This document shows positions 41,310-58,501 of a stretch of DNA of 64,000 nucleotides, piece by piece. Both the position numbers and the translations under genes were made by a program. Origin of the DNA: an uncultured Bacteroidales bacterium (lineage in GTDB: Bacteria > Bacteroidota > Bacteroidia > Bacteroidales > Paludibacteraceae). The stretch lies in contig CADCEV010000002.1 in assembly GCA_902800525.1 (NCBI GenBank), positions 95,695-159,694 of the forward strand, written 5' to 3'. Within the stretch, counting starts at the first letter, position 1. The number at the start of each line of letters is the position of its first letter. The notes beneath the pieces were generated by a model. The model was not told where the DNA came from and did not search any database. It worked only from the letters and a program-made list of their open reading frames with translations.

Positions 41310-43553
41310 TTATTCCGCATAATCCGCAAAAACTGCGTAGAACACTTGATCGCCCGTAGCGTTCGGGAATTCCGATGCCGTAGTATAAAGTTCCGAACTA
41401 CCATGCACATAAGCGCCGCCTTCTGCGTCTGTCCAGCCCATAAACCGGTCTCCGCAGAATTCTCCCGTGGTAGGCGCAGTCGGTAACGTACTTATATGCC
41501 CGCCTCCGTTCACTGTGGTAGAACCGCCTTTATCGGACCATTCTGATCCATCAACCATCCAGGTTACGTTGTATTGAATAGTGAATGTGCCGCTCAATTG
41601 ATTAGAATTACTACATCCGTCTTTCCATGCAATAGCCTTGATCTTAGTTACAACCGTCATGTGAATAGGACCATCATATTCTGTACTGCTTTCTGACGGA
41701 GTTCCGGGCGTAGTTCCATCTTCGGTCAAGGTATAGTAAATCTTATCACCATAAGTGGTACTCAATTCAACATCTTGCGGACCGGAATGTGTTCCGGCTG
41801 CTGGAGATGCAGTCGGAACAGCACATTTAATGGTATAGGTGCCCGACTTTTGGTCAGATTTCGTATATCCGCTCTTGAATGCTCTCGCTTTTAAGGTTTT
41901 GGTTGTAGAAAAGGTAATGGCACTGGTATAAATCGTGCTACTTTCCGTCGGATCACTTCCGTCCAATGTATATCGGATAACTGCATCTGTAGTCCCGCAT
42001 GTGATGGTAATATCTTGTGACCCAATATATGTGTTAGTCTCAGCACTCAAACTCGGCTGTTCACATTTAAGCGTATAGGCGGCACTAACCATACTTGAAG
42101 CCGTATAGCCGCTCTTGAATACTTTTGCTTTCAGCGTTTTGGATGAAGTGATTGCAATTGCGCTGGAATAAACAGCACTACTCTCTGTCGGTGTCGTTCC
42201 ATCCAGCGTATAACGAATAGTTGCTCCGGCTGTTGTCGTGCTAATTGTTGTGCTCTGATCATTATAATACGTACCACCGGTAAGAGTGATTGTCGGATTA
42301 ACGCAAACCATCGTATAAGTTGCACTCGCCACATCAGAATCCGAGCACCCGGATTTTACTGCGATTGCCTTTATTGTCTGCGTGGCATTGACAGTAATAG
42401 CGCTGCTATATAAAGTACTGTTTGTCGTCGGGGTCGTACCATCCGTGGTGTAATAAATACTTGTTCCAAAAGTCGTAGAGAGAGTGACATCGACATCATT
42501 GTTTTTTGTGCCGCCTGCGACAGAGAATGTAGGCGTAGCACATTTTATGGTGTATGTCGCCGAAGCAACATCTGATGCAGTCAAGCCGGCTTTAAATGCT
42601 TTTGCTTTAATCGTTTTACTCGCATCCACTGTAATGGCAGAACTATATGCAGTACTGCTCCCTGTAGGATCTGTTCCGTCGGTCGTATAGCGAATCGTTG
42701 CTCCGGCAGTACCACAACTAAGTGTTACACTCTTACTCGTCGTGTATGTTCCTTCTGCAACAGAGAACGTGGGAGCTGCTACGGCTACTTCGTCATAAGT
42801 TAATGTGTACTCTGTTGTATATACGGCACATGCGTATCCTCCGTAAATCTTGTATCCGGTTACAGCAGATGTAGGGCTGAAGGTAAAAATATTCCAATTT
42901 GCATTACTTGAACTACTTCCTGTAGTCACAGAAGTTGTTGTTTGAGCATTGCCTACAACTCCTCCTGTACTATTTAATAGAACTACGCTCAAACTATTCG
43001 AATAACCGGAAGCTGCGGTATTACAAACTGCTTTGACACGAATAGTAAGAGAAAAATTACTATACTGACCATTAGATAGTACATTCTTTAGTGCGGTGAT
43101 GTTGTAGTCACTTACATACCAATTGGTATTTTTCCCGTATCCACCACAATAAGAAGTACCACTTTTATTTGTCCATCCAGAAGAAATCGTAATGGAAGTT
43201 GGACCTAACGTGGATGCTCCCCAAGCATCCCCGACGCCTATAATTAAAAGCATTGCCAGCATAGCAGCAATGTGCGCCCATTTACGACTCGATTTTGAGA
43301 CGGTCGTTGGAGATAAGAAGGAAATAAGTTGGAGGTTTGTTTGTGCCTCCCCCTCCTTCACTCTACTGCCCTTCTTCTCATTGTTTGCGAAAAATGGCAT
43401 GAGACTTTTGAGACTTTTGAGACTTTCAGAAAAAATTGCACTGGCAGTTTTGTCAGTTTTGACAGTTTTCTGATTTTTGTGGTTGTTTCTAATTTCCATA
43501 TCTTCTATCTTTTCCATATCTTTTGTCTTATTTGTGTCCTTTGTGAACACCAA
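41310..43553 (-). CDS. Secreted repeat protein, up to 747 aa, with ~6 tandem ~75-aa chitobiase/hexosaminidase-C-like (CHB_HEX_C_1-type) domains
   Basis: Repeats of the form TFSVAEGTY..VTLS....ATIRYTTDGTDPT.SST.YSSAITV..T.TIKA.A.K.G...S.V.SATYT. The hydrophobic signal region ends in DAWG. The start is uncertain: the track uses the TTG at 43553, and the first ATG before the signal region is at 43400. Confidence 0.8.
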   Translation of the reverse strand: MVFTKDTNKTKDMEKIEDMEIRNNHKNQKTVKTDKTASAIFSESLKSLKSLMPFFANNEKKGSRVKEGEAQTNLQLISFLSPTTVSKSSRKWAHIAAMLAMLLIIGVGDAWGASTLGPTSITISSGWTNKSGTSYCGGYGKNTNWYVSDYNITALKNVLSNGQYSNFSLTIRVKAVCNTAASGYSNSLSVVLLNSTGGVVGNAQTTTSVTTGSSSSNANWNIFTFSPTSAVTGYKIYGGYACAVYTTEYTLTYDEVAVAAPTFSVAEGTYTTSKSVTLSCGTAGATIRYTTDGTDPTGSSTAYSSAITVDASKTIKAKAFKAGLTASDVASATYTIKCATPTFSVAGGTKNNDVDVTLSTTFGTSIYYTTDGTTPTTNSTLYSSAITVNATQTIKAIAVKSGCSDSDVASATYTMVCVNPTITLTGGTYYNDQSTTISTTTAGATIRYTLDGTTPTESSAVYSSAIAITSSKTLKAKVFKSGYTASSMVSAAYTLKCEQPSLSAETNTYIGSQDITITCGTTDAVIRYTLDGSDPTESSTIYTSAITFSTTKTLKARAFKSGYTKSDQKSGTYTIKCAVPTASPAAGTHSGPQDVELSTTYGDKIYYTLTEDGTTPGTPSESSTEYDGPIHMTVVTKIKAIAWKDGCSNSNQLSGTFTIQYNVTWMVDGSEWSDKGGSTTVNGGGHISTLPTAPTTGEFCGDRFMGWTDAEGGAYVHGSSELYTTASEFPNATGDQVFYAVFADYAE
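43401..43472. repeat. Two short 9-bp tandem arrays (GAGACTTTT x~3; CAGTTTTGN x3)
   Basis: gagacttttgagacttttgagacttt at 43401-43427 and cagttttgtcagttttgacagttttct at about 43445-43472. Both lie in the 5' region of the 747-aa ORF. Confidence 0.8.
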
Positions 43554-43587
43554 AATCTATTCCACCTGTTTAATCTGTGGATCTCCT

Positions 43588-43612
43588 AAACCGTCCCTTT
43601 TTTGTGTGCCAC
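43588..43612. repeat. Inverted repeat, left arm (AAACCGTCCCTTTTTTGTGTGCCAC)
   Basis: Exact reverse complement of 44015-44039 (25/25, checked base by base). Confidence 0.95.
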
Positions 43613-43804
43613 GCGCTCAAACGACTATGTGTGTGCGCGTTACGTACGCGCGATATATAAATAAGGTGTGGTTCTAAAAGTGCAGAAAAGCGCTACCGAA
43701 TAAAACATAAAATGTTGTATTATAACGTTTTTAGGTTTTTTTGTTAGGTAAAAATAGCAATATATATATTTTTGCATAAAAATAAAAAAAAAATTCTTAA
43801 AGAC

Positions 43805-43835
43805 TTGCGTATATCAAAAAAAAGTTGTACCTTTG
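43805..43835 (+). promoter_or_regulatory. Consensus promoter inside the IR-bounded segment, currently facing rightward
   Basis: TTGCGTATATCAAAAAAAAGTTGTACCTTTGCA: -33-like TTG at 43805 and -7 TACCTTTG at 43828-43835. Same extended motif as the udk, ttcA and pnp promoters in this window. Confidence 0.65.
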
Positions 43836-44014
43836 CACTCGCAATTGAAATTACAGTTCAGTTGGAAGTACCAACGGTTAAGACACTACTTCGACATGAC
43901 AAAATATTACTTCAATAGCAATTTAATAACTAATCCTCTGATCATTTGTGAGGGTTAGCAATACTGCGCACTATCTATTTCAGGTGGTGCGCTCTGCGTT
44001 TATTAAGTTGAGTA

Positions 44015-44039
44015 GTGGCACACAAAAAAGGGACGGTTT
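44015..44039. repeat. Inverted repeat, right arm (GTGGCACACAAAAAAGGGACGGTTT)
   Basis: Exact reverse complement of 43588-43612. Confidence 0.95.
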
Positions 44040-44103
44040 TGCGAAACCATTAAATAATTCGTAAGAGTGGTCATTGGAATGATGTATTTAGCGAAAAAAA
44101 TCG

Positions 44104-44111
44104 TAACTTTG
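44104..44111 (+). promoter_or_regulatory. -7 box (TAACTTTG) immediately upstream of the recombinase gene, outside the inverted repeats
   Basis: GCGAAAAAAATCGTAACTTTGCACTAAAAAAGCTTATG, with the ATG at 44126. Confidence 0.45.
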
Positions 44112-44125
44112 CACTAAAAAAGCTT

Positions 44126-44740
44126 ATGAAGTACGGTTATATTCGCGTTAGTAGCGACAAACAAACAGTTGAAAACCAGCGTTTTGAAATCAACCGGTTT
44201 TGCCTTCGGGAAGGTATCGCCGTGGACGGATGGATCGAAGAAACAGTCTCCGGCACACAGCCTTATTCCAAACGACAATTGGGCAAACTGCTCCACCATG
44301 TCAACAAAGGCGATCTCATCATCTGTAGCGAACTCAGCCGTTTGGGCAGAAACCTCTACATGATCATGGAGATCCTCAGTCTCTGCATGAACCGCGGTTG
44401 TGCGGTTTGGACCATCAAAGACGGTTACCGCCTCGGGGATGATCTTCAATCCAAAGTCTTAGCTTTCGCTTTTGGTCTCTCTGCTGAGATTGAACGAACG
44501 CTCATCAGTCAGCGGACACGAGAAGCCCTCGCGCGACTCAAAGCGGAAGGTAAACCCATCGGTCGCCCCAAAGGCAGCCGCACGCGCAAAGAGGCGCATC
44601 CTCTTTTCCGCCATGAGACCTATATCCGCCTCTCGCTCTCCCGCGGTACGTCCCAGCGTGAAATCGCCCGTCGCCTTCATTGCAACCGCAGCACCCTCCG
44701 CCGCTTCATCACATCTAACATGACAACCCCTAACCCCTAA
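44126..44740 (+). CDS. Serine site-specific recombinase (resolvase/invertase family; candidate DNA invertase)
   Basis: MKYGYIRVSSDKQTVENQ with the catalytic Ser in YIRVSS, SRLGRN, ERTLISQRTREALA, and a C-terminal HTH (SQREIARRLHCNRSTLRRF). 204 aa. Confidence 0.9.
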   Translation: MKYGYIRVSSDKQTVENQRFEINRFCLREGIAVDGWIEETVSGTQPYSKRQLGKLLHHVNKGDLIICSELSRLGRNLYMIMEILSLCMNRGCAVWTIKDGYRLGDDLQSKVLAFAFGLSAEIERTLISQRTREALARLKAEGKPIGRPKGSRTRKEAHPLFRHETYIRLSLSRGTSQREIARRLHCNRSTLRRFITSNMTTPNP

Positions 44741-44823
44741 CTCATCAGACATCAAACATAACACATCAAACATACCTTAGTGCCATCTCGCGGCACTTAA
44801 AAGCAGCGAGAAACGACCTTTGA

Positions 44824-44850
44824 CATAATGATATGATGAAAAATTATCTA
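44824..44850 (+). repeat. Start-codon repeat, copy A (CATAATGATATGATGAAAAATTATCTA)
   Basis: Direct copy of the 45175-45204 start region of the giant gene and inverted copy of 45113-45138. Followed only by an 11-codon ORF. Confidence 0.7.
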
Positions 44851-45129
44851 CAGAGAATGGACCGATAATGCATCTTTATCATTGGGCGTTAGGGTATAGT
44901 AATACGGGGTCTGACTGGATGGCAAAGCCGTTAAACCCCAATTGGACGTACCACTATAATGGAATCCGGAGCCATCAATACCCAATACGTAAACGGCATT
45001 AGCATCAATACCTGATATAGACTCCAAGCGTGTGTACGTATAACCCCATGCTTGTCCCAAACTGAGTGTTAATAACATCAATGGCACTAAAAGCCATTTA
45101 AATTTAGAAGAGATAAAATTTGTCATCAT
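44848..45129 (-). CDS. 93-aa signal-peptide-bearing fragment, paralogous to the N-terminus of the 2735-aa protein
   Basis: Signal peptide ending QAWG. VYVLGIDGSGFHYSGTSNWG resembles KYVIGNYNGSKYLAATSGNWG of the giant protein. The ORF exactly fills the space between repeat copies A and B. It may be a cassette or a pseudogene remnant. Confidence 0.45.
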   Translation of the reverse strand: MMTNFISSKFKWLLVPLMLLTLSLGQAWGYTYTRLESISGIDANAVYVLGIDGSGFHYSGTSNWGLTALPSSQTPYYYTLTPNDKDALSVHSL

Positions 45130-45138
45130 ATTGTTATG
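45113..45138 (-). repeat. Start-codon repeat, copy B (inverted)
   Basis: The reverse complement CATAACAATATGATGACAAATTTTAT matches copy A at about 21/26 positions, with a perfect 9-nt core ATATGATGA. Confidence 0.65.
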
Positions 45139-45174
45139 TTAATTATGTTTGCGTTGGGTTGTAAATATTTAAAA

Positions 45175-45204
45175 CACAATGATATGAAGAAAAGATTATT
45201 TACA
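45175..45204 (+). repeat. Start-codon repeat, copy C (start of the giant gene)
   Basis: CACAATGATATGAAGAAAAGATTATTTAC. Similarity to copy A continues for about 45 nt. Confidence 0.65.
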
Positions 45205-48200
45205 AATTTTCGAAGGATGATAGGCATCGTCCTATTAGCATGTTTGGCGAACACTAATGTGTGGGCTACTTTAACTGCGGATAGTATTGTTACCACTGCT
45301 TCTACATCTCTTGTTGATGGAGGAAAGTATGTCATTGGCAACTATAATGGATCAAAATATTTGGCAGCAACAAGTGGAAACTGGGGTAGTATTGCAACCC
45401 TAAGTTCAGCCTACGTTTTTACTGTACACGGAAGTGCAACTGCGTTTTATGTTACATGTGTAGATGGCACCTTAAAAACGGCTAGCGCAAAATCATGGGG
45501 AGGTTATGATAATAGTACTAGTAATAACATCAAATTAAGTAACAGTGGAGATATAATTAAATACGGAGCTACGAAACCATATCTCAAGATAAATGGAACC
45601 TCCGGCTTTAGATGGTACGATTCTGGACAAACAGCAGTTTATATGTATCAGGTTGGTTTCAATATCTTCTTTACACAACCTGCTTCAGGTGGTTCTATTG
45701 CTGCGACATCAACTGTTGCTACTTTTAATAACTCTAAGAACTTAATGGCGGGTGTATACAAGACAAAAACCGTTACACTTACAGCAACTCCACCTTCAGG
45801 AAAAACAGTCAATGCTTGGACGGTTAAGAAGAAGTCTGATAATTCTGATGTTACTTCTACTGTCTTGTCCGGGACAACTCTTACAATGCCTGCTTATGAT
45901 GTGGTTGTGAGCGTCACTTGGAGAGATGCTGCTTCTTGTGCGGTTAATCCTACCGTGGGTGGTTCAGAAAAAGGTTCTATTTCTTGCACCACCGCGACGA
46001 TTAATTGTAACAACGGTTCTGACAAGGGTGTTGTGAAGGGAAGTTGCGACATTTCAGAGTGGGGATTTGTGTATGGAGCAAGTAGCAATCCTACTGGCAA
46101 TAAAACCAGCAAAGGTACAAATGCAGAGGGTGATGTGGCTAATTTTAGTCACACGTTTACCAATTTAACTCCAGGTGCAACGTATTATGTTCGTGCTTAT
46201 GCAATTGTGAACGGAACAACATATTATGGAACAGAGACGAGTTTTACGACTAAAACGATTACAGTAACCGCTAATAATGGAAGTTATGGCTCTGTATCCG
46301 GAGAAGGATTAAGTTGGACAGGTTCTCCTAACTCGGGATATGTATATGCAAGTCCGGCTTATACGATTACAGCTGGTAACAATACCACAGTAGAAAAAGA
46401 AGGAAATACGTTTACGATCACTTCTACTTCGACGGAAAATGTAGAGATCACGATTAACTTTGAGCCGAAGGGATGTGAAGAAAAAGGAGCATCAAGTATA
46501 ACGAGTGGTACAAGCACAGGTTATACATCTGGTCCTGTGGACGAATACTACAAATATAGTGCTCGTCAAATTCTTTATACAAAATCTGACTTAGGATTAG
46601 CTGCAGGAAAGAAAGGTGTCATCAAGTCCATTTATTTCCAGTATAGTTATAACACGGCTATGTCAAAAAAGACCAATGTGGATATTTATTTGGCGAACAC
46701 AAATTTGACAAGTCTTTCAACAAGTTCTTACGTGCCATTTGCTAATTTCACCAAGGTATATACAGGTGCTTTGAATTGTTCTGGTAATGGCACATGGAAT
46801 GAAATAACGTTCGATGATTCATTTGAATATAATGGTATAGGTCAGTTAGTAGTTTTGATAGACGACAACTCAAATCAATATGATGGTTCCGATTATAAAT
46901 TCAAATATCATTCAGGAGTAAGCGGAGCGCAAATCTATATGCGCGACGACAATTCAAACATTGACCCATCTAGTGCTAGTACATGGACAAGTGCTAATGA
47001 ACTCACAGATCGTCCTAACACTAAGTTCTGTATAGAAGAAAAGGATATGGTAAAATCAACAGTATCCTTTAGTACAGGAACGGGTAATACAGCGCAAGCA
47101 AATATAACTGAATCCTCTGCTGGTTCCGGTATTACTTTGCCGGCAGGTCCTACGCCAAAGTGTTCTGCTGATGGTTGGAGTTTTGCGGGTTGGGTTGAAT
47201 CTGAGGTGTCAAGTGAGACAACTACTGCTCCAACATTACTCACAGCAGGTGATACCTATTATCCTGCATCTAATATAACGCTTTACGCAGTATATGTAAA
47301 AAGTGAAGCTGCAGCAAATGCTACGACAACGACATATACCCTCAACGGTAACTGGACTACAAATAATGGCAATTGGACAAAAGTAGATGGTAATAACCTT
47401 AGTCAAGTGTCGTCGAAATGGGGACTTACTAGTGGTTCATCGACGGCTGTTTCTCCATCTTCATGGACAGATATTGAAACTATTACCTTTACCGGATCAA
47501 AATCAGATGCAGGAGCAGGTTCGGTCGCTTTCTATTATGGATCTGGTGACTCATGGACTTTAATCGAAAGTAAAAGTTTTGGTACTTCGTTAACATGGTC
47601 TCCGAATCCTAAAGTCACAGGAGAGTTAAAATGCGTCTTTACACGTACGAATGGAAATATCTATATCGCATCAATTGCTGTGAAGGGAAAGATCACAGTT
47701 AGCACCTATTTTAGCAACCCGACATGTTGCGAAACGTTAGCAGATATCAACGGTGAAGTTGAGTTTACTGATCCGACAACGGCTGTGGTAACATGGGATA
47801 AACTGGCAAATGTGGCTGCATCGAATGCATATGCAGTTTCATACAGAACAGGTGAGGCTGCTTATGGAACAACGAATGTGGGTGCTATTGATTTGACAGG
47901 AAGCAAAGCAACTTGCACGATTACAGGTTTGGGTTGTAATACAAGTTATGATATTAAGATTGCGGTAACGGCAGCAACCGGCTATTGCGACAAAGAGCAA
48001 GTGATTGCAAGTCAAAACTCCGGCAAATATGCGATTACATTGAACGGAAACGGAACTATTACCGGTGGTACGTTTGAGGCAGATGAGACTTCAGCTTGTG
48101 ATGGTGCTACGATTACATTAAGCGCAAGCAAGAGTGCAGGATATAATTTCAACAGTTGGGCTATTTCGGATGGTAATAATATCACTGCTGATGTCCTCAA

Positions 48201-51200
48201 GGATGGTTATGCTGCAACAGACGATATCGTTGAAATCACGATGCCGGCTAAGGATATTACTATTAACGCTTCGTTTAGTACGATATCTTATGATATTACG
48301 TACGCGAACATGGAGGGTGCTACTAACCATGTAAGCAATCCTGCTAACTATACAATAGAAAGCTCGGATATTTCGTTAGGCAATCCGACGAAGGAAGGCT
48401 TTAACTTCGGTGGTTGGTTCGTAGATAGCGATTTGGCTGTAGGTCACGAGGCAGGTTCGCCGGCAATTGCGGCAGGTTCGACCGGTAATAAGACATTCTA
48501 TGCAAAATGGATCGCTGATGATAAATGGAACGTGGCTATTACGACTCCGAGCAACGGAAGTATAAGCGTGACATATGAGGGTATGGAGTCAGCGTTGACA
48601 AGTGGTTCGAGAGAGATAGCAAAGAACACAGTTATTACGATTACTGCTACTCCGAGTGCGGGATATTCATTGGAATCGTTGAAGATAGGCGATGCTGATT
48701 TTACAAGTGGTAATACCCATACATTGACTTCGTCGATAGTTATCTCTGCAACGTTCTCTATTATCAATTATAGTATTACGTATAACAACATGGAGGGCGC
48801 TACCAACCATGAGGATAATGTTGCAAGTTATACTATTGAAGCGGCAGAAGACGTATTGCTGAATGATGCTTCTAAGACGGGATATCATTTTGATGGTTGG
48901 TTCACCGACAATGGAACTTGGGAGAATCAGATAATGTGGATTGATAAGGGATCTACCGGCAATGTAGTTGTTTATGCAAAATGGACAGCAAATACGTATC
49001 AAGTTACTATTGATAAGAATTATGGTACGGCAGGTACTGTTGATGTAACGGCTACATTTGATGCTGCAATGCCGAGTCTGACTGGAAAATCAATAAGTCG
49101 CTCTGGATATAATTTAGCAGGTATCTTTGCGAACAATGATGGTACTGGTACGAAGTATTACAATGCAGATAAGACCAGCGCGCATGAATGGGATCAGGCA
49201 CAAGATAAGACCATCTATGCAACTTGGAGCCCGAAGAATTATACTATCACGCTGAATAACGAAGGCGCCGATACCGGTCATGAAGGTACGGCAAGTATTG
49301 CGGTCACATTTGATAGTAGCGATAATCTGACAAGTGCTATAGATAGACCGGAAAAGGAGGGCTACAAGTTCTGCGGATACTTCACGGAAACAGGTGGAGC
49401 AGGCACTCAACTTATTGGAGAGGACGGAAATGTTATTGCAAGCGTATCTAACTACACAAGTTCTACAAAGCAATGGAAGAAAGCAGGAGATGTGGAATTA
49501 CACGCGTTCTGGAAAGCTTGCCATACCGTAACTTGGTATGTGAACTCAACAGAGACACCGGAAATCGTAGTTCACGGAGAAAAGGTAGCGGCGATGCCGA
49601 CACCTCCCACTTCTGCGGAATGCGATGATGCGAAGAAGTTCGTAGGATGGCGTGCAGAGAAGATCACCGGTATTTCGCCGAGTACACCCGACGGTATCTT
49701 TACGGCCGTTGCAGGTTCACCTGAAGTTACGGAAGATGTAACATTCTATGCGGTATTTGCAACAGAAACGATAGGAGATATCGTTTTGGTTAAGAATATT
49801 AATGATTTGACAGATGGCGCAAAGGTTTACATCTACTCTGAATTTGAGGCAAGCGAAACAACTTATGGTGCTGTAGCAAAGGCATATGAAACTGGTAATA
49901 ATGTACGTGCCGTTTCCGGTACGGTTTCAAACGAAAAATTGACACCGGGTACTGGTGCTTGTGCATATACTTTCGGTAAAGTAAAAGTAGGCAATACCGA
50001 TTACTATACCTTTAACGATGGTACCTATTATTTGTATCCATCCGGTTCAGATAAAAACTATCTCGTAGGAGAAACAGATCTTAATGACAATGACTATAGT
50101 TTATTTACAGTAGAGATTAATACTACAACAGGTGTTGCATCTATCAATAGCAAGGGTAATACAAGTAGAGGCAAAATGCAATTCAATAAGAATGCTGATA
50201 CCGGCGATTATACGAAGGCTATATTTGCTTGCTATAAATCAGACGCTAGCCAAACTGATGTAAAACTATTCAAAAAGATTCCAGATGTATATTCCGACTA
50301 TGTTACCAAGTGTGCGTCGTGCGATGCGGATGCTACGTTTACAACGGCTTTACCGGCAGTAAGTGAAGAGGCTTGTACGAGTGCAACGGTAACGGCAACA
50401 GGTGGTTTAGCAACGTTAGGTTCAGAAGGTTGCAACATCAGCGACTATGGATTTGTTCTTGGTACAGCTACTAATCCTGTACTGGATGGTGAGGGCGTTA
50501 CTAAACTGCAAGTAGGTACGAGCAACCCGACCGTAGGTAATGACTTCTCGTATGACTTGACCGGTTTGACGAAGGGCACACACTATTATGTACGTGCATA
50601 CGCGGTCAATAAACACGGTGTTGCTTATAGCAGCACGAAGGACTTCTGGACGAAAGATGTAAGCAGCATTGCAATCACGACCGCTCCGACAAAGACCAAT
50701 TACATCGTAGGTGAGACGTTCGATGCAACGGGAATGGTTGTTACGGCTACTTTGGCTGGCGGAGCAACAGAGAATGTCTCGGAAGGCGTAACGTACTCGA
50801 GTGCTGCTTTGACGGCAGGAACAAACAATGACTTCACTGTAAGTTATACACTTTGCGAGACAGAGAAGACGGCTACGCAGAAAATCAATGTATATAGCGC
50901 TACAGTCACCGAAGGTACCAATGAGGATAAGGGCGTTATGGCATATGACAATGCCGGTACGATTACGATTAGCAGCTTGGCTGAACATACGACGGTTGAG
51001 TTTGTGAAGACGAATGCTGATATCCGCGACAACGGAGATGGTTCGTTCTCGATTATCAACCCAACGGGTACGGTAAATATCACGGTTAATTATGTAACGG
51101 CTGTTCAGGTGGCAGTTAAGTTCTATGCTAAAGGTACTGAATTGACAGGTTTGGCATTGAGTCCGTACCAGAGCGAGAACTTCGATATGCCTGATGCAAG

Positions 51201-53391
51201 TGCTGCTGCAAGTGCGATGACTGCAGCAAGTGTGAGTGTAAGCGATGATGTACACTTCGTAGGCTGGTCTGCAAGTGATTTCCCGTACCAGACGAGTGAG
51301 CCGACTATGGTTGGTGCGACCGGAAAGGTAACAGCTGCTACGAACTTCTATGCTGTATTCTCGAATATTCAAAAGGTAAGAGTTGATGAAGGTGTCATTA
51401 CCGGTAGTTATCAAAGTAATGAGACTGAAGTATCGGCAGGAGGCTTTGAAAATGGCTTTGTACATAAGCAAGTAATGAAGAATGCAACGACAAGGCTTCA
51501 ATTCCACAAAGGATCTTCTGATTATGGCTATGTATATAACAAGACAGCTATTTCTAATATTGTACGAATTGAAGTAGGCGTTCCGGGTACTGGTTATCGT
51601 GGTGGTATTCCGGTATACGCTTGTTCGGCAAAGAAGACGATATCAGGAAGTGCGTTAATTGATGAAGATACTGCAGACGATAGATATATCTACTTGTTCC
51701 CTGCGAACACGCAGTACTTCTGGGTCAAGGGAAATAATGATGATACCTACAATGTAGATTATATTGACATCTACTATGCTCCGGAAGCGGTATATTACAC
51801 AACTCAGTTCCAGACTCTAACGTTCAATAAGGCAGACGGTAACAAAGATAAGGATGAGATGGTTGCTAAGAACAAAGCTTATGCGTTGACGGAAGATGAT
51901 GCTCCTGAAGCAGTTGAGCACTATACGTTCCTTGACAAGTGGACAGACAGCCAGAATACCTATGAAATAGGTGACGCTGTGACCATGAGCACAAATGTTA
52001 CACTGACTCCGATTAGTGCGTACGAAACAACGGGAGATACTGACATCGACGACCTGCCTGCAACCGTGACGGAGATTGTTGTAACGGATGGTAAGAATCT
52101 GAACGTTAATGACGACAAGACCCTTGATAACCTCATCGTTGAGAATGGCGGTAAGGTAACTTTGAGCAGCAACAAACTGACCGTCGTTGGTACATTCTCC
52201 ATAGAGACAACTATGGCAGGTGGTAACTCAGGTCAATTGGAAGGTGCAACAGCATCGAACTTTGAGGCAAGTGAGGCTTATATCGACATTACGCTGGGTA
52301 AGAATGGAGACCCGAATCAGTGGCATGCGTTTACGGTTCCGTTCCCGGTTGATGTGATGAACGGTATCTATGATCTGGAAGGTAATAAGTTAGCGAACGA
52401 AGTGAACTACGCTATCATGGATTACCACGGAGACATCCGTGCACAAGGTCAATACGGATGGAAGAAATATCGTGGTGTATTGGTTCCGGGTACCTTCTAT
52501 ATCATGGCAACCGACGGCGGCCGCACGACCTACCGCTTCAAGAAGACGGCTAATGGTGCTCTCGTAGCTGGCAACAGCAAGGCTATCTATGAGTATGCAA
52601 GTTCGACCGGCGGCAATGACAATGGTTGGAACGGCATCGGTAACCCGAACTTGTTCTACGGCAAGGTTAATCTGGCAGTACAGGTTCTTGATCCGAATAG
52701 TTACACCTTTATTACCAAGACCGCTCAGTCAACGAACTTCGTTGTGGGAACACCGTTCTTCTATCAGGCAACAGCCGATGGTACGATGGTAATGGAAACC
52801 GCAAACGCAGGTGGCAACTACGCACCGGCACGCGAACGCGCAATGGAGATAAAGGATGTACCGGTAGGCTTCGGCAACGAGGACTTCACTGACTACCTCT
52901 ATGTTACGGCCAACGAGGATGCGCTCAACGAGTATGAGACCGGCAAGGATCTTGCGAAGATGACGATGACCAATACGCCGAAGGTGGCACAGATCTTCGG
53001 TAAGGCATACAACACCAAACTCAGTATGGTTAACGTTCCGATGGTGAACGATCAAGCCGAAGTGGCGCTTGAGCTCTATGCTCCGCAAGCCGGTACATAC
53101 ACCATCAGCGTTCCGACAGAGCGCGAGGATGCAAGTCTCTACCTGACCAAGGACGGTAACATCATCTGGGATCTGACAGTCTCGCCGTATGAAGCAGAGT
53201 TTGACAAGGGTCAGAACAACGGCTACGGTTTGATGCTTGTCCGCAAAGCTCCGCAAGTGACAACCGGTGTGGAGACAATTGACAATTCACAATTGACAAT
53301 TCACAATTGTCAGAAGGTGATCCTCAATGACCATGTGTACATCCTCCGCGATGGACAACTCTATGACGTCATCGGAAAAGCGGTTAAATAA
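45184..53391 (+). CDS. Giant secreted cell-surface repeat protein, 2735 aa (Listeria-Bacteroides/InlB-B repeats, FN3-like, Big_3-like, C-terminal module shared with the 877-aa protein)
   Basis: The ATG at 45184 (MKKRLFTNFRRMIGIVLLACLANTNVWA) is preferred over the track start at 45136. Multiple YxITYxNMEGATNH...GWF...YAKW repeats. Ends with YILRDGQLYDVIGKAVK. Confidence 0.88.
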   Translation: MKKRLFTNFRRMIGIVLLACLANTNVWATLTADSIVTTASTSLVDGGKYVIGNYNGSKYLAATSGNWGSIATLSSAYVFTVHGSATAFYVTCVDGTLKTASAKSWGGYDNSTSNNIKLSNSGDIIKYGATKPYLKINGTSGFRWYDSGQTAVYMYQVGFNIFFTQPASGGSIAATSTVATFNNSKNLMAGVYKTKTVTLTATPPSGKTVNAWTVKKKSDNSDVTSTVLSGTTLTMPAYDVVVSVTWRDAASCAVNPTVGGSEKGSISCTTATINCNNGSDKGVVKGSCDISEWGFVYGASSNPTGNKTSKGTNAEGDVANFSHTFTNLTPGATYYVRAYAIVNGTTYYGTETSFTTKTITVTANNGSYGSVSGEGLSWTGSPNSGYVYASPAYTITAGNNTTVEKEGNTFTITSTSTENVEITINFEPKGCEEKGASSITSGTSTGYTSGPVDEYYKYSARQILYTKSDLGLAAGKKGVIKSIYFQYSYNTAMSKKTNVDIYLANTNLTSLSTSSYVPFANFTKVYTGALNCSGNGTWNEITFDDSFEYNGIGQLVVLIDDNSNQYDGSDYKFKYHSGVSGAQIYMRDDNSNIDPSSASTWTSANELTDRPNTKFCIEEKDMVKSTVSFSTGTGNTAQANITESSAGSGITLPAGPTPKCSADGWSFAGWVESEVSSETTTAPTLLTAGDTYYPASNITLYAVYVKSEAAANATTTTYTLNGNWTTNNGNWTKVDGNNLSQVSSKWGLTSGSSTAVSPSSWTDIETITFTGSKSDAGAGSVAFYYGSGDSWTLIESKSFGTSLTWSPNPKVTGELKCVFTRTNGNIYIASIAVKGKITVSTYFSNPTCCETLADINGEVEFTDPTTAVVTWDKLANVAASNAYAVSYRTGEAAYGTTNVGAIDLTGSKATCTITGLGCNTSYDIKIAVTAATGYCDKEQVIASQNSGKYAITLNGNGTITGGTFEADETSACDGATITLSASKSAGYNFNSWAISDGNNITADVLKDGYAATDDIVEITMPAKDITINASFSTISYDITYANMEGATNHVSNPANYTIESSDISLGNPTKEGFNFGGWFVDSDLAVGHEAGSPAIAAGSTGNKTFYAKWIADDKWNVAITTPSNGSISVTYEGMESALTSGSREIAKNTVITITATPSAGYSLESLKIGDADFTSGNTHTLTSSIVISATFSIINYSITYNNMEGATNHEDNVASYTIEAAEDVLLNDASKTGYHFDGWFTDNGTWENQIMWIDKGSTGNVVVYAKWTANTYQVTIDKNYGTAGTVDVTATFDAAMPSLTGKSISRSGYNLAGIFANNDGTGTKYYNADKTSAHEWDQAQDKTIYATWSPKNYTITLNNEGADTGHEGTASIAVTFDSSDNLTSAIDRPEKEGYKFCGYFTETGGAGTQLIGEDGNVIASVSNYTSSTKQWKKAGDVELHAFWKACHTVTWYVNSTETPEIVVHGEKVAAMPTPPTSAECDDAKKFVGWRAEKITGISPSTPDGIFTAVAGSPEVTEDVTFYAVFATETIGDIVLVKNINDLTDGAKVYIYSEFEASETTYGAVAKAYETGNNVRAVSGTVSNEKLTPGTGACAYTFGKVKVGNTDYYTFNDGTYYLYPSGSDKNYLVGETDLNDNDYSLFTVEINTTTGVASINSKGNTSRGKMQFNKNADTGDYTKAIFACYKSDASQTDVKLFKKIPDVYSDYVTKCASCDADATFTTALPAVSEEACTSATVTATGGLATLGSEGCNISDYGFVLGTATNPVLDGEGVTKLQVGTSNPTVGNDFSYDLTGLTKGTHYYVRAYAVNKHGVAYSSTKDFWTKDVSSIAITTAPTKTNYIVGETFDATGMVVTATLAGGATENVSEGVTYSSAALTAGTNNDFTVSYTLCETEKTATQKINVYSATVTEGTNEDKGVMAYDNAGTITISSLAEHTTVEFVKTNADIRDNGDGSFSIINPTGTVNITVNYVTAVQVAVKFYAKGTELTGLALSPYQSENFDMPDASAAASAMTAASVSVSDDVHFVGWSASDFPYQTSEPTMVGATGKVTAATNFYAVFSNIQKVRVDEGVITGSYQSNETEVSAGGFENGFVHKQVMKNATTRLQFHKGSSDYGYVYNKTAISNIVRIEVGVPGTGYRGGIPVYACSAKKTISGSALIDEDTADDRYIYLFPANTQYFWVKGNNDDTYNVDYIDIYYAPEAVYYTTQFQTLTFNKADGNKDKDEMVAKNKAYALTEDDAPEAVEHYTFLDKWTDSQNTYEIGDAVTMSTNVTLTPISAYETTGDTDIDDLPATVTEIVVTDGKNLNVNDDKTLDNLIVENGGKVTLSSNKLTVVGTFSIETTMAGGNSGQLEGATASNFEASEAYIDITLGKNGDPNQWHAFTVPFPVDVMNGIYDLEGNKLANEVNYAIMDYHGDIRAQGQYGWKKYRGVLVPGTFYIMATDGGRTTYRFKKTANGALVAGNSKAIYEYASSTGGNDNGWNGIGNPNLFYGKVNLAVQVLDPNSYTFITKTAQSTNFVVGTPFFYQATADGTMVMETANAGGNYAPARERAMEIKDVPVGFGNEDFTDYLYVTANEDALNEYETGKDLAKMTMTNTPKVAQIFGKAYNTKLSMVNVPMVNDQAEVALELYAPQAGTYTISVPTEREDASLYLTKDGNIIWDLTVSPYEAEFDKGQNNGYGLMLVRKAPQVTTGVETIDNSQLTIHNCQKVILNDHVYILRDGQLYDVIGKAVK
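53276..53311. repeat. CAATTGA/CAATTCA heptamer array (5 units) inside the giant gene
   Basis: Translated as IDNSQLTIHNCQ, about 25 codons before the stop. Confidence 0.9.
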
Positions 53392-57950: not shown

Positions 57951-57982
57951 ATAAGCAGCGCAACCGCGCTGCTTATTTTTTA
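57951..57982 (+). terminator. Intrinsic terminator after pnp
   Basis: AAGCAGCG-CAACCG-CGCTGCTT followed by ATTTTTT. Confidence 0.8.
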
Positions 57983-58013
57983 ATTCACAATTCACAATTC
58001 ACAATTCACAATT
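57982..58013. repeat. AATTCAC heptamer array (4.5 units)
   Basis: Inverted relative to the array at 58389-58501. The two flank the four-helix-bundle gene. Confidence 0.9.
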
Positions 58014-58374
58014 TTATATCATTGTTGTTTTTTGAGGTTTTAATAATAGATGTCAGAATCTTTAATAGCTCTTTATTATCAGAATATACACTATTAAATA
58101 ATGTTTGCTCAAGTATATTACTTTCGTACAAAAGTTCTAACCAATATTCCGTCTCTTCCGCTTCTTTTAGCGCAATGGAAAATTTGGCAATAAAGTCTGG
58201 GGTGCTCTGTGCTCTAACTCCTTCTTTTACATTCGCGCCAATGCTTGTACCCGATCGTAATAGTTGTTTTGAAAGAACATACTCATGTTTATCGTTGCTT
58301 AACAATTGGTATAAACTTATTATTCGCAACGCGAATGCTTTGCTTTTTTGCTCTATTACATTTCCCTCTTTCAT
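58006..58374 (-). CDS. Four-helix-bundle protein (23S rRNA intervening-sequence protein family)
   Basis: 122 aa. KHEYVLSKQLLRSGTSIGANVKEG....S..DFI.KF.IALKEA.ET.YWLELL is typical of the family. Confidence 0.8.
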   Translation of the reverse strand: MKEGNVIEQKSKAFALRIISLYQLLSNDKHEYVLSKQLLRSGTSIGANVKEGVRAQSTPDFIAKFSIALKEAEETEYWLELLYESNILEQTLFNSVYSDNKELLKILTSIIKTSKNNNDIKL

Positions 58375-58388
58375 AGATTTATCTATTT

Positions 58389-58501
58389 TAATTGTGCATT
58401 ATTAATTGTAAATTGTGCATTGTGCATTATTAATTGTGAATTGTGCATTGTGAATTGTGCATTATTAATTGTGCATTGTGAATTGTGCATTGTGAATTGT
58501 C
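58389..58501. repeat. (A/C)ATTGTG heptamer array with ATTATTA interruptions, about 113 nt
   Basis: Runs from the four-helix-bundle gene start up to the tamB stop codon. Confidence 0.95.

What the first reader, a model, noticed from the sequence alone, without database searches (positions are those of the whole stretch)
44815..45204. Three copies of a start-codon-spanning sequence (two direct, one inverted) bracket a 93-aa gene fragment: a second invertible segment or a scar of one
Copy A (44824-44850, CATAATGATATGATGAAAAATTATCTA) is preceded by a promoter-like GACCTTTG (44815-44822) but opens only an 11-codon ORF. Copy C (45175-45204) is the real start of the 2735-aa gene, and its similarity to A continues for about 45 nt. 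Copy B (45113-45138) is inverted (about 21/26 to A, perfect ATATGATGA core) and is the start of the minus-strand 93-aa ORF. That ORF's stop codon (44848-44850) abuts copy A, so it exactly fills the A-B interval. Its product is a signal peptide plus about 65 aa homologous to the N-terminus of the giant protein. Inversion between A and B would place this ORF in sense behind the 44815 promoter-like element. Recombination between A and C would delete it and put the giant gene directly behind that element. This resembles Bacteroidales shufflons, in which the 5' ends of surface-protein genes are exchanged at a single expression site.
Basis: seen in the sequence. Interest (0 to 1): 0.62.

Follow-up and report, generated by a model that had tools for sequence, protein, structure and literature searches.

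The report
Scar of a head-swapping surface-protein shufflon
The 93-codon gene fragment is the decayed spare "front end" of a DNA-flipping switch that, in a sister rumen species, still gives a giant surface protein one of two different front ends; in this genome the switch is broken and locked, and the three look-alike start sequences are not where the flipping happens.

Summary
The three copies are real. A/B match 22 of 26 (inverted) and A/C 27 of 30 (direct). Only five such matches exist in the 2.39-Mb genome, and three lie here.

The proposed A-B inversion and A-C deletion have no support. Contigs from three rumen samples show only the present arrangement.

Copy A is the 3' end of a genus-wide repeat: a hairpin, a covarying second stem and a promoter-like box. 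It follows the Mpi-family invertase gene. B and C are the back-to-back starts of two alternative 5' "heads".

The 93-aa ORF is a truncated head: a signal peptide plus 57 residues of an N-terminal domain found in 800-1600-aa surface proteins.

A same-genus genome (G320) carries the intact system. A 1,712-bp double-headed segment is bounded by about 77-nt imperfect inverted repeats at the head/body junction. Both orientations occur at about 1:1 in one metagenome, with crossover in a 6-bp GGTTCC core. Inversion fuses either a 292-aa or a 269-aa head (26% identical) to the same giant body.

The window keeps only the right arm (about 45925-46000), which has no partner in the genome. It is therefore locked with the C head on.

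Verdict: a scar of a shufflon with different sites and boundaries than proposed; a new member of a known kind.

The parts
44126..44740 (+). Mpi-family master DNA invertase (204-aa serine recombinase). It is a candidate enzyme acting in trans.
   Evidence: Pfam Resolvase E 5.6e-32. NCBIfam NF009949 scores 298.9 bits against a cut-off of 272. More than 563 relatives exist across Bacteroidales.
44779..44841 (+). Genus-wide repeat: hairpin AGTGCC/GGCACT, an A-rich linker, a stretch complementary to the hairpin loop (GCGAGA), then the promoter-like box GACCTTTGACATAATGATATGATGAAA. Copy A (44820-44850) is its 3' end.
   Evidence: The same architecture follows the recombinase stop codon in L003, L006, L008, L009, L011, L017, L020, L022 and L023, and it occurs elsewhere too. 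Window 44815-44841 is 93-96% identical in many genomes of the genus. There is a weak match to the unpaired 5' end of RF02956.
44842..44874 (+). Tail of the repeat, including the rest of the 11-codon ORF. It ends at the deletion junction at 44874/44875.
   Evidence: A contig in X25 matches 44778-44874 and then diverges. Family homology of the 93-aa ORF ends at residue ~85, which is nt ~44875. A similar tail follows the repeat in L112.
44848..45129 (-). 93-aa ORF, the truncated silent head. 45044-45129 encodes the B-type signal peptide. 44875-45043 encodes 57 residues of a 'TYEQLTSI' N-terminal domain. The last 8 codons are read from the repeat tail.
   Evidence: 45044-45287 is 83% identical to G320. 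Left of 45044, G320 and X25 carry a different head. phmmer finds 77 hits at E<1e-10 to the N-termini of 800-1600-aa proteins (alignment). There is no paralog in the same genome.
45130..45183 (.). Spacer between the two divergent starts (copy B 45117-45142, copy C 45174-45204). It holds a canonical promoter for the giant gene: -33 TTTG at 45118-45121 and -7 TATGTTTG at 45144-45151.
   Evidence: Promoter-motif scan. The spacer and both boxes are conserved in G320.
45184..45972 (+). C-type head now fused to the body: signal peptide plus about 260 residues.
   Evidence: It is 63.5% identical to the detached 285-aa C head of G320. blastn matches window 45044-45993 to L119 8489-9441.
45925..46000 (+). 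Surviving right arm of the shufflon inverted repeat. The crossover core is GGTTCT at 45973-45978 (GGTTCC in G320).
   Evidence: It aligns to both G320 arms, and no inverted partner exists anywhere in the genome. The crossover was mapped to the 6-bp core in X26.
45979..53391 (+). Constant body of the 2735-aa surface protein (Flg_new, fn3 and Big_3 repeats).
   Evidence: Pfam. 45959-46701 is 80.6% identical to G320, where it lies in the opposite orientation relative to the C head.
43588..44039 (.). Context: the separate invertible promoter, with perfect 25-nt inverted repeats, upstream of the invertase gene.
   Evidence: Contigs in X3 break at the repeats. An earlier follow-up reached the same conclusion.

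Best explanation
The locus is a degenerate, locked copy of a head-swapping shufflon.

In the intact form (sister species G320), a 1.7-kb segment carries two divergent 5' modules, or 'heads'. Each head has its own start codon, its own signal peptide and about 270-290 residues of N-terminal domain. The two heads are separated by a spacer of about 50 bp that holds back-to-back promoters.

Both heads end in the same sequence of about 77 nt, arranged as an inverted repeat. Site-specific inversion crosses over in a 6-bp GGTTCC core. It fuses one head or the other, in frame, to the constant giant body. The other head is left as a short dead-end ORF.

In the window's genome the C head is fused to the body. 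The other head has been reduced by replacement and deletion to 93 codons. The left repeat arm is gone, so the segment can no longer invert.

Copies B and C resemble each other because they are the mirrored starts and promoters of the two heads. Copy A is the end of an unrelated promoter-like repeat that happens to border the scar.

Shown: the anatomy, both orientations in one sample, the crossover core, and the absence of a partner arm in the window. Inferred: which enzyme acts (an Mpi-family invertase working in trans is the leading candidate), and that the promoters function.
For: G320 has the same modules with the double-headed segment inverted relative to the body and to copy A.

The B head plus body in G320 form one open frame of at least 2858 aa. 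The C head there is a detached 285-aa ORF.

In X26, G320's own sample, contigs break at both ends of L119 7714-9425. The two 54-nt reference junction contigs have depths of 7.5 and 11.7. They coexist with two 54-nt alternative junction contigs of depths 6.9 and 14. The sequences of the alternative contigs are exactly those predicted for the inverted form. The flanks carry no differences.

X28 contigs show the C head fused to the body and the B head placed next to copy A. RNA contigs from X41/X42 show both kinds of junction.

The window's arm has no inverted partner anywhere in the genome. X1 has a single unbroken 9.8-kb contig here.

The 93-aa ORF is the first ~85 residues of a large-protein family.

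A canonical promoter lies inside the spacer.

The inverted repeats next to Mpi genes (AAACCGTCCCTTTTTT, AAACGACCCTTTTAT) resemble the shufflon core AAAAGGTTCCTTTTCT in 12 of 16 positions.
Against: All read evidence is from assembled Logan contigs, not raw or long reads. The 1:1 mix in X26 could in principle be two co-resident clones fixed in opposite states.

Only one other species among 267 in the genus carries the segment.

In G320 the Mpi homolog lies 230 kb away and no recombinase is adjacent, so the enzyme is unassigned.

The strong A-to-C similarity (27/30), which crosses a reading-frame shift, is not fully explained by shared promoter or start function.

The order of the events that truncated the spare head is reconstructed, not observed.
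Confidence: 0.75

Rival explanations
1. A and B are recombination sites of a small (271-bp) invertible segment that is still active, or A and C recombine to delete it. Either event would place the 93-aa ORF or the giant gene behind a fixed promoter at 44815.
For: The A/B/C similarity is far above chance and crosses reading frames, which suggests conservation at the DNA level. A serine invertase gene lies 80 bp upstream. Copy A carries a -7-like box.
Against: No inverted or deleted junction appears in X1 (39x), X2 or X24. The A sequence is a genus-wide repeat found in contexts with no partner copy. The longest perfect identity between A and B is 9 nt, and the sites bear no resemblance to the inverted repeats next to Mpi genes. 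Inversion would only express a truncated 93-aa peptide. The giant gene has its own promoter. In G320 copy A lies outside the segment that actually flips.
Confidence: 0.05
2. There is no programmed switch. The window and G320 differ by a one-off evolutionary inversion through homologous recombination between similar coding stretches. The mixed junctions in X26, X28 and X41 reflect co-resident strains fixed in different states. The 93-aa ORF is an ordinary pseudogene.
For: The data are contigs from metagenomes, not clones. The repeat arms are only about 75% identical in G320. No recombinase gene is adjacent in G320. Tandem paralogs elsewhere show 22/26 similarity in their start regions without any repeat system.
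Against: Exchange falls in the same 6-bp core at both ends, between mismatches. That is too little identity for RecA-type recombination. The flanks and the segment have zero differences between the two forms in X26. The same breakpoints recur in X25, X28 and X41/42, which come from different studies and years. The design is purpose-built: two complete heads, back-to-back promoters, and both heads ending in frame at the same junction.
Confidence: 0.15
3. The A, B and C similarity is simply the shared translation-start and promoter context of secreted-protein genes in this lineage. It has no bearing on recombination, past or present.
For: An unrelated secreted-protein gene at C7:98016 starts with AAATAATGATATGATGAAGA. 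Members of the family in other metagenomes have ACATAA a few bases before the ATG. Most genome-wide inverted repeats of this strength are divergent promoters. The -33 and -7 boxes of each head overlap the other head's start region.
Against: This does not explain why the locus sits next to a demonstrable shufflon scar. It also does not explain why three of the five genome-wide matches cluster within 380 bp. It is compatible with the best explanation for B and C and is included in it. It fails only as a complete account.
Confidence: 0.05

Closest known systems
Bacteroides susC-like PUL shufflons (B. thetaiotaomicron BT1033-52 locus; B. fragilis SusC/SusD shufflons), as described in bioRxiv 10.1101/521070
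   Same: DNA recombination in Bacteroidales exchanges the 5' ends of surface-protein genes. The recombination site is a short core (7 bp there, 6 bp here) inside the 5' coding region, flanked by imperfect repeats.
   Different: In those systems a single promoter and 5' end is shuffled among several complete genes or operons, and a tyrosine recombinase is usually adjacent (from my knowledge of the literature). Here one constant giant body receives one of two complete heads. Each head brings its own promoter, start codon and signal peptide on a single double-headed invertible segment. No tyrosine recombinase is nearby.
Partial intergenic invertons / shufflon-type invertons (Milman et al. 2023 and Chanin et al., as summarised in PMC10028968)
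   Same: An invertible segment partly overlaps a gene and swaps homologous modules of the protein. Such segments are longer than promoter invertons (1.7 kb here).
   Different: Most described cases swap C-terminal or specificity domains, such as the R64 pilV shufflon, Type I hsdS genes and phage tail fibres. This one swaps the N-terminal 270-290 residues, including the export signal, of a protein of more than 2700 aa. It was found in uncultured rumen Bacteroidales, and the window's copy is a dead version.
Mpi (master DNA invertase) of Bacteroides fragilis and its invertible promoters
   Same: The adjacent gene meets the NCBIfam Mpi equivalog model. It sits beside a classic invertible promoter. 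Mpi enzymes act in trans on many sites (from knowledge of Coyne et al. 2003).
   Different: Mpi is known for flipping promoters, not coding modules. Its action on the GGTTCC-core repeats is only an inference from a 12/16 resemblance.
Rfam RF02956 (DUF2693 RNA)
   Same: The unpaired 5' end of its consensus (GAUCUUUGACAUAcUUGAUA) is the same box as copy A.
   Different: The score is 17.3 bits against a gathering score of 81.3, and the structured part of the model is absent. Copy A is therefore not a member.

Membership tests
Shufflon / partial intergenic inverton (gene-module-swapping inversion) | Inverted repeats bound the invertible segment | tested here: not met
   In the window only the right arm (45925-46000) survives, and the genome holds no inverted partner. 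The feature is met in the sister genome G320: arms of about 77 nt at L119 7680-7760 and 9365-9441, about 75% identical, with the core GGTTCC.
Shufflon / partial intergenic inverton (gene-module-swapping inversion) | Both orientations coexist in a population | tested here: not met
   Window species: X1 (39x) has one unbroken contig and no alternative junction contigs, and X2 and X24 show the same arrangement. Met in G320's sample X26, where the reference junctions have depths 7.5 and 11.7 and the alternative junctions 6.9 and 14.
Shufflon / partial intergenic inverton (gene-module-swapping inversion) | Alternative modules are joined in frame to a constant part of the gene | tested here: met
   In the window the C head and body form a 2735-aa ORF. 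In G320 the B head and body form an open frame of at least 2858 aa, and X28 and X26 show the C head fused to the body.
Shufflon / partial intergenic inverton (gene-module-swapping inversion) | A dedicated site-specific recombinase acts on the repeats | not testable with these tools
   An Mpi-family invertase gene is adjacent in the window, but it lies 230 kb away in G320. No tyrosine recombinase is nearby in either genome. Activity would need an experiment.
   Each head has its own ATG and signal peptide, and a canonical -33/-7 promoter lies inside the segment. Copy A lies outside the flipping segment in G320. Promoter activity itself was not tested.
Mpi-family master DNA invertase (NF009949) | Score above the curated equivalog cut-off, with a resolvase catalytic domain and a C-terminal HTH | tested here: met
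   298.9 bits against a cut-off of 272. PF00239 E 5.6e-32 plus HTH hits.
DUF2693 RNA (RF02956) | Reaches the Rfam gathering score | tested here: not met
   17.3 bits against 81.3, E 2.3. Only the unstructured 5' box matches.

The most novel reading that the evidence does not exclude
Two linked possibilities remain open.

(a) An Mpi-family 'promoter' invertase also flips coding modules. In that case one global enzyme would control both the on/off state and the N-terminal identity of giant surface proteins in rumen Bacteroidales. The evidence is that the shufflon core (AAAAGGTTCCTTTTCT) resembles the inverted repeats next to Mpi genes.

(b) The repeat that ends in copy A is an undescribed structured element that marks cassette borders downstream of Mpi genes. 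It consists of a conserved AGTGC hairpin, an A-rich linker, a second stem that co-varies with the hairpin loop, and then the GAnCnTTGACATAnTG box. It would be either an RNA pseudoknot or a DNA recombination or insertion signal. The rearrangements that built and then broke this locus would have happened at it.
Probability: 0.25. Interest if true: 0.65.

Novelty: new member of a known kind. Interest (0 to 1): 0.45.

Why it matters
This shows that rumen Bacteroidales vary giant surface proteins by swapping whole N-terminal heads, not only by flipping promoters. Each head is 270-290 residues and includes the export signal. The heads presumably contact host, phage or substrate, so the switch would change what the cell presents without changing the 7-kb body.

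It also gives a worked example of how such a switch decays. One head is deleted, one repeat arm is lost, and the gene is locked. Short "orphan signal-peptide ORFs" facing large adhesin genes can therefore be read as shufflon scars when genomes are annotated.

For the window itself the practical conclusion is modest. The 93-aa ORF should be annotated as a pseudogene fragment, and the giant gene is constitutively of the C-head type.

Tried and rejected
(1) Paralogs of the 93-aa ORF in the same genome: none by tblastn.

(2) The 93-aa ORF in 150 genomes of the same family: no match. Its relatives come from other rumen taxa.

(3) Start-codon-spanning repeats or recombinases next to 14 family members in metagenome contigs: none found.

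(4) Exact-protein look-up of the 92-aa product: not on record.

(5) Treating the contig breaks in X25 as proof of inversion: rejected. There the repeat may be 30 nt or longer and perfect, which breaks de Bruijn contigs even with one orientation. X26 is informative because only 6 nt are shared.

(6) An inverted repeat next to G320's own Mpi gene: none found within 1.5 kb.

(8) Enrichment of AATGATATGA, a possible 'MI-stop' mini-ORF overlapping the start: 8 occurrences in the genome against about 10 expected from base composition (my own estimate, not a tool result), so it is not enriched.

(9) Rfam scan of 43300-45600: nothing near a gathering score.

Full report
**What is at the coordinates**

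Copy A is TTGACATAATGATATGATGAAAAATT at 44820-44845. Its inverted counterpart B lies at 45117-45142 and matches 22 of 26. Direct copy C lies at 45174-45204 and is the real start of the 2735-aa gene.

Local alignment gives A/C 27 of 30 with one gap and A/B 26 of 30 with a 2-nt gap. Each is above all 300 shuffles.

In the whole 2.39-Mb genome the A 20-mer has only five matches at three or fewer mismatches, and three of them are A, B and C. The clustering is therefore not chance.

As a bare inverted repeat, however, A/B is weak. Genome-wide, 36 inverted pairs reach 22/26, against 14 mirror-repeat controls. Most of the inverted pairs are divergent promoters or heptamer arrays.

**What copy A is**

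The gene upstream (44126-44740) is an Mpi-family master DNA invertase. It scores 298.9 bits on NF009949 against a cut-off of 272.

In many relatives its stop codon is followed by the same composite element. This element has a hairpin (AGTGC...GCACT), an A-rich linker, a stretch complementary to the hairpin loop, and then GAnCnTTGACATAnTG.

Window 44815-44841 (GACCTTTGACATAATGATATGATGAAA) recurs at 93-96% identity in many genomes of the genus. In those copies it is followed by unrelated, mostly non-coding sequence.

The element is also the unpaired 5' end of the Rfam DUF2693 RNA consensus, although the window does not meet that model.

Copy A is therefore the end of a lineage-wide repeat. It is not the relic of a gene start.

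**What the 93-aa ORF is**

The ORF has no paralog in its own genome. Its match to the giant protein is insignificant (E 0.71; hhalign probability 20%).

A search of 1.8 billion representative proteins gave 77 hits below 1e-10. The ORF is 55-75% identical to residues ~10-85 of surface proteins of 800-1600 aa.

In those proteins the N-terminal domain runs on for about 90 more residues. The ORF is therefore a truncated head.

Homology stops at residue ~85, which is nt ~44875. At this same position a contig from another cattle sample (X25) diverges from the window. A full-length family member shares a 29-residue motif with the giant protein's N-terminal domain (E 2e-4). A distant common domain type is thus likely.

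**No evidence for A-B inversion or A-C deletion**

Logan contigs of X1 (the source sample, 39x), X2 and X24 all show the present arrangement. None has a strand-switch joint at A or B.

Contigs can miss rare variants, so this excludes only frequent inversion.

**The decisive comparison**

One other species of the genus, G320, carries the B|C double start (83% identity). There the modules are arranged differently.

- The giant body lies on the opposite strand relative to the C head.
- The body is fused in frame to a 292-aa B-type head that begins MMTNFISFKFKWLL.... Together they form an open frame of at least 2858 aa.
- The C-type head (MKKKLFTNFRRM...) is a detached 285-aa ORF pointing at copy A.

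Flipping the 1,712-bp double-headed segment (L119 7714-9425) converts the G320 order into the window's order.

The two heads are only 26% identical, except for their last 34 residues (47%). Those residues are encoded by imperfect inverted repeats of about 77 nt.

**Both orientations coexist**

In X26, the sample G320 came from, contigs break at both ends of the segment. The two 54-nt reference junction contigs have depths of 7.5 and 11.7.

They are accompanied by two alternative 54-nt contigs of depths 6.9 and 14. One alternative reads rc(flank)-GGAACC-B-head end. The other reads C-head end-GGTTCC-TGTACCACCGCAACGATC, which is the body.

With k = 31, a 54-nt junction contig implies only 6 shared bases (my own arithmetic from the contig and k-mer lengths). 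Those bases are the GGTTCC core, which is bracketed by mismatches. The breaks therefore cannot be a repeat-collapse artefact, and the identity is too short for homologous recombination.

Independent samples add support. X28 shows the C head fused to the body and the B head next to copy A. RNA contigs from X41/X42 show both kinds of junction. In X25 the segment assembles as its own contig, ending at the same sites.

**Back to the window**

The window retains the right arm (about 45925-46000, core GGTTCT at 45973-45978). No inverted partner exists anywhere in the genome. X1 shows no alternative junction there.

The spare head has been altered twice. Left of 45044 its body was replaced by a fragment of the 'TYEQLTSI' domain. 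At 44874/44875 it was cut off against the tail of the copy-A repeat.

The locus is therefore a locked scar with the C head permanently fused.

**Why B and C look alike**

The 54-bp spacer holds a canonical Bacteroidetes promoter for the giant gene. Its -33 TTTG lies at 45118-45121, inside B's first codons. Its -7 TATGTTTG lies at 45144-45151. A weaker mirror-image promoter for the B head has its -7-like box, TATCATTG, overlapping copy C. All of this is conserved in G320.

Two back-to-back starts, each overlapping the other's promoter, account for much of the inverted similarity.

The strong A/C match, which persists across a frame shift, is not fully explained. It may reflect the same promoter and start module in the repeat.

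**Enzyme**

No recombinase is adjacent in G320. Its Mpi homolog lies 230 kb away, and the genome has only four tyrosine recombinases, none of them near.

The inverted repeats next to Mpi genes in this clade (AAACCGTCCCTTTTTT, AAACGACCCTTTTAT) resemble the shufflon core region AAAAGGTTCCTTTTCT in 12 of 16 positions. Mpi enzymes are known to act in trans on many sites.

An Mpi-family invertase is therefore the leading candidate. This is inference only.

**Comparison with what is known**

Bacteroides shufflons exchange the 5' ends of susC-like genes at a 7-bp site (bioRxiv 10.1101/521070). 'Partial intergenic invertons', or shufflons, that swap protein modules are established (PMC10028968).

This system is of the same kind. 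It differs in three ways:

- one constant giant body receives one of two complete heads;
- each head brings its own promoter, start codon and signal peptide on a double-headed segment;
- no tyrosine recombinase is adjacent.

I rate it a new member of a known kind. The window's copy is a dead example.

**Earlier notes of this scan**

My data agree. X3 contigs break at those repeats, and the NCBIfam model is met.

Noticed in passing
window 44779-44841; also L003, L004, L006, L008, L015, L017, L020, L022, L023, L119 9579-9643 (minus strand), and the same genome at about C7:100016 (minus strand): A repeated element has the topology of an H-type pseudoknot. It has a conserved AGTGC/GCACT stem, an A-rich linker, and a second stretch that co-varies with the hairpin loop (atctcgc/gcgaga, tcactcc/ggagtga, cttgccg/cggcaa, atccatc/gatgga, gccgtta/taacgg, gcgctt/aagcg). 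The GAnCnTTGACATAnTG box follows. The mean complementary match of a loop to its own tail is 5.4 nt, against 3.3 nt to other copies' tails (permutation p<5e-5, though the instances were hand-picked). No Rfam family matches. In L002 two direct copies flank an ATPase_2 gene, like the borders of a cassette. An RNA contig reads through the element.
   Followed up: partly
window 43390-44784 compared with L002 3255-4673: A block of about 1.4 kb is 97.7% identical in another species' genome, and the flanks on both sides are unrelated. The block holds the first ~54 codons of the leftward surface-protein gene, the invertible promoter, the Mpi gene and its hairpin. It behaves like a transferable cassette. 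Protein-identical Mpi genes occur in at least 18 contigs from goat, sheep and cattle samples.
   Followed up: partly
window 43588-43612 / 44015-44039: Perfect 25-nt inverted repeats bound a 402-bp promoter segment. Goat-rumen contigs (X3) break exactly at the repeats, as expected if both orientations are present. An earlier follow-up already reported this.
   Followed up: partly
window 45118-45151: A canonical Bacteroidetes promoter for the giant gene (-33 TTTG, -7 TATGTTTG) lies inside the spacer between the two divergent starts. Its -33 box falls within the first codons of the 93-aa ORF.
   Followed up: partly
window 44743-44770: The 14-nt unit ACATCAAACATAAC just after the invertase stop codon varies in copy number between strains. 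X7 and L002 each have one more copy.
   Followed up: no
window 43805-43845: A generic strong promoter block (AAAAAAGTTGTACCTTTGCACT) has word depths in the thousands in every rumen run. It is therefore shared by very many genes and organisms, and it breaks assemblies.
   Followed up: no
L119 9505-9570 (G320): A multi-copy repeat of about 60 nt lies between the shufflon's outer arm and copy A. Its depth is 570-780, against about 20 for the flanks.
   Followed up: no
L096 873-1085 and L097 3352-3564: Other metagenome contigs carry 70-aa truncated heads of the same 'TYEQLTSI' family, with a second similar start region 983 nt downstream. Orphan heads of this family are therefore not unique to the window.
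   Followed up: no
window 57981-58014 and 58390-58500: Arrays of the heptamer CAATTCA/CAATGCA lie in inverted orientation about 400 bp apart, between pnp and the TamB-like gene.
   Followed up: no
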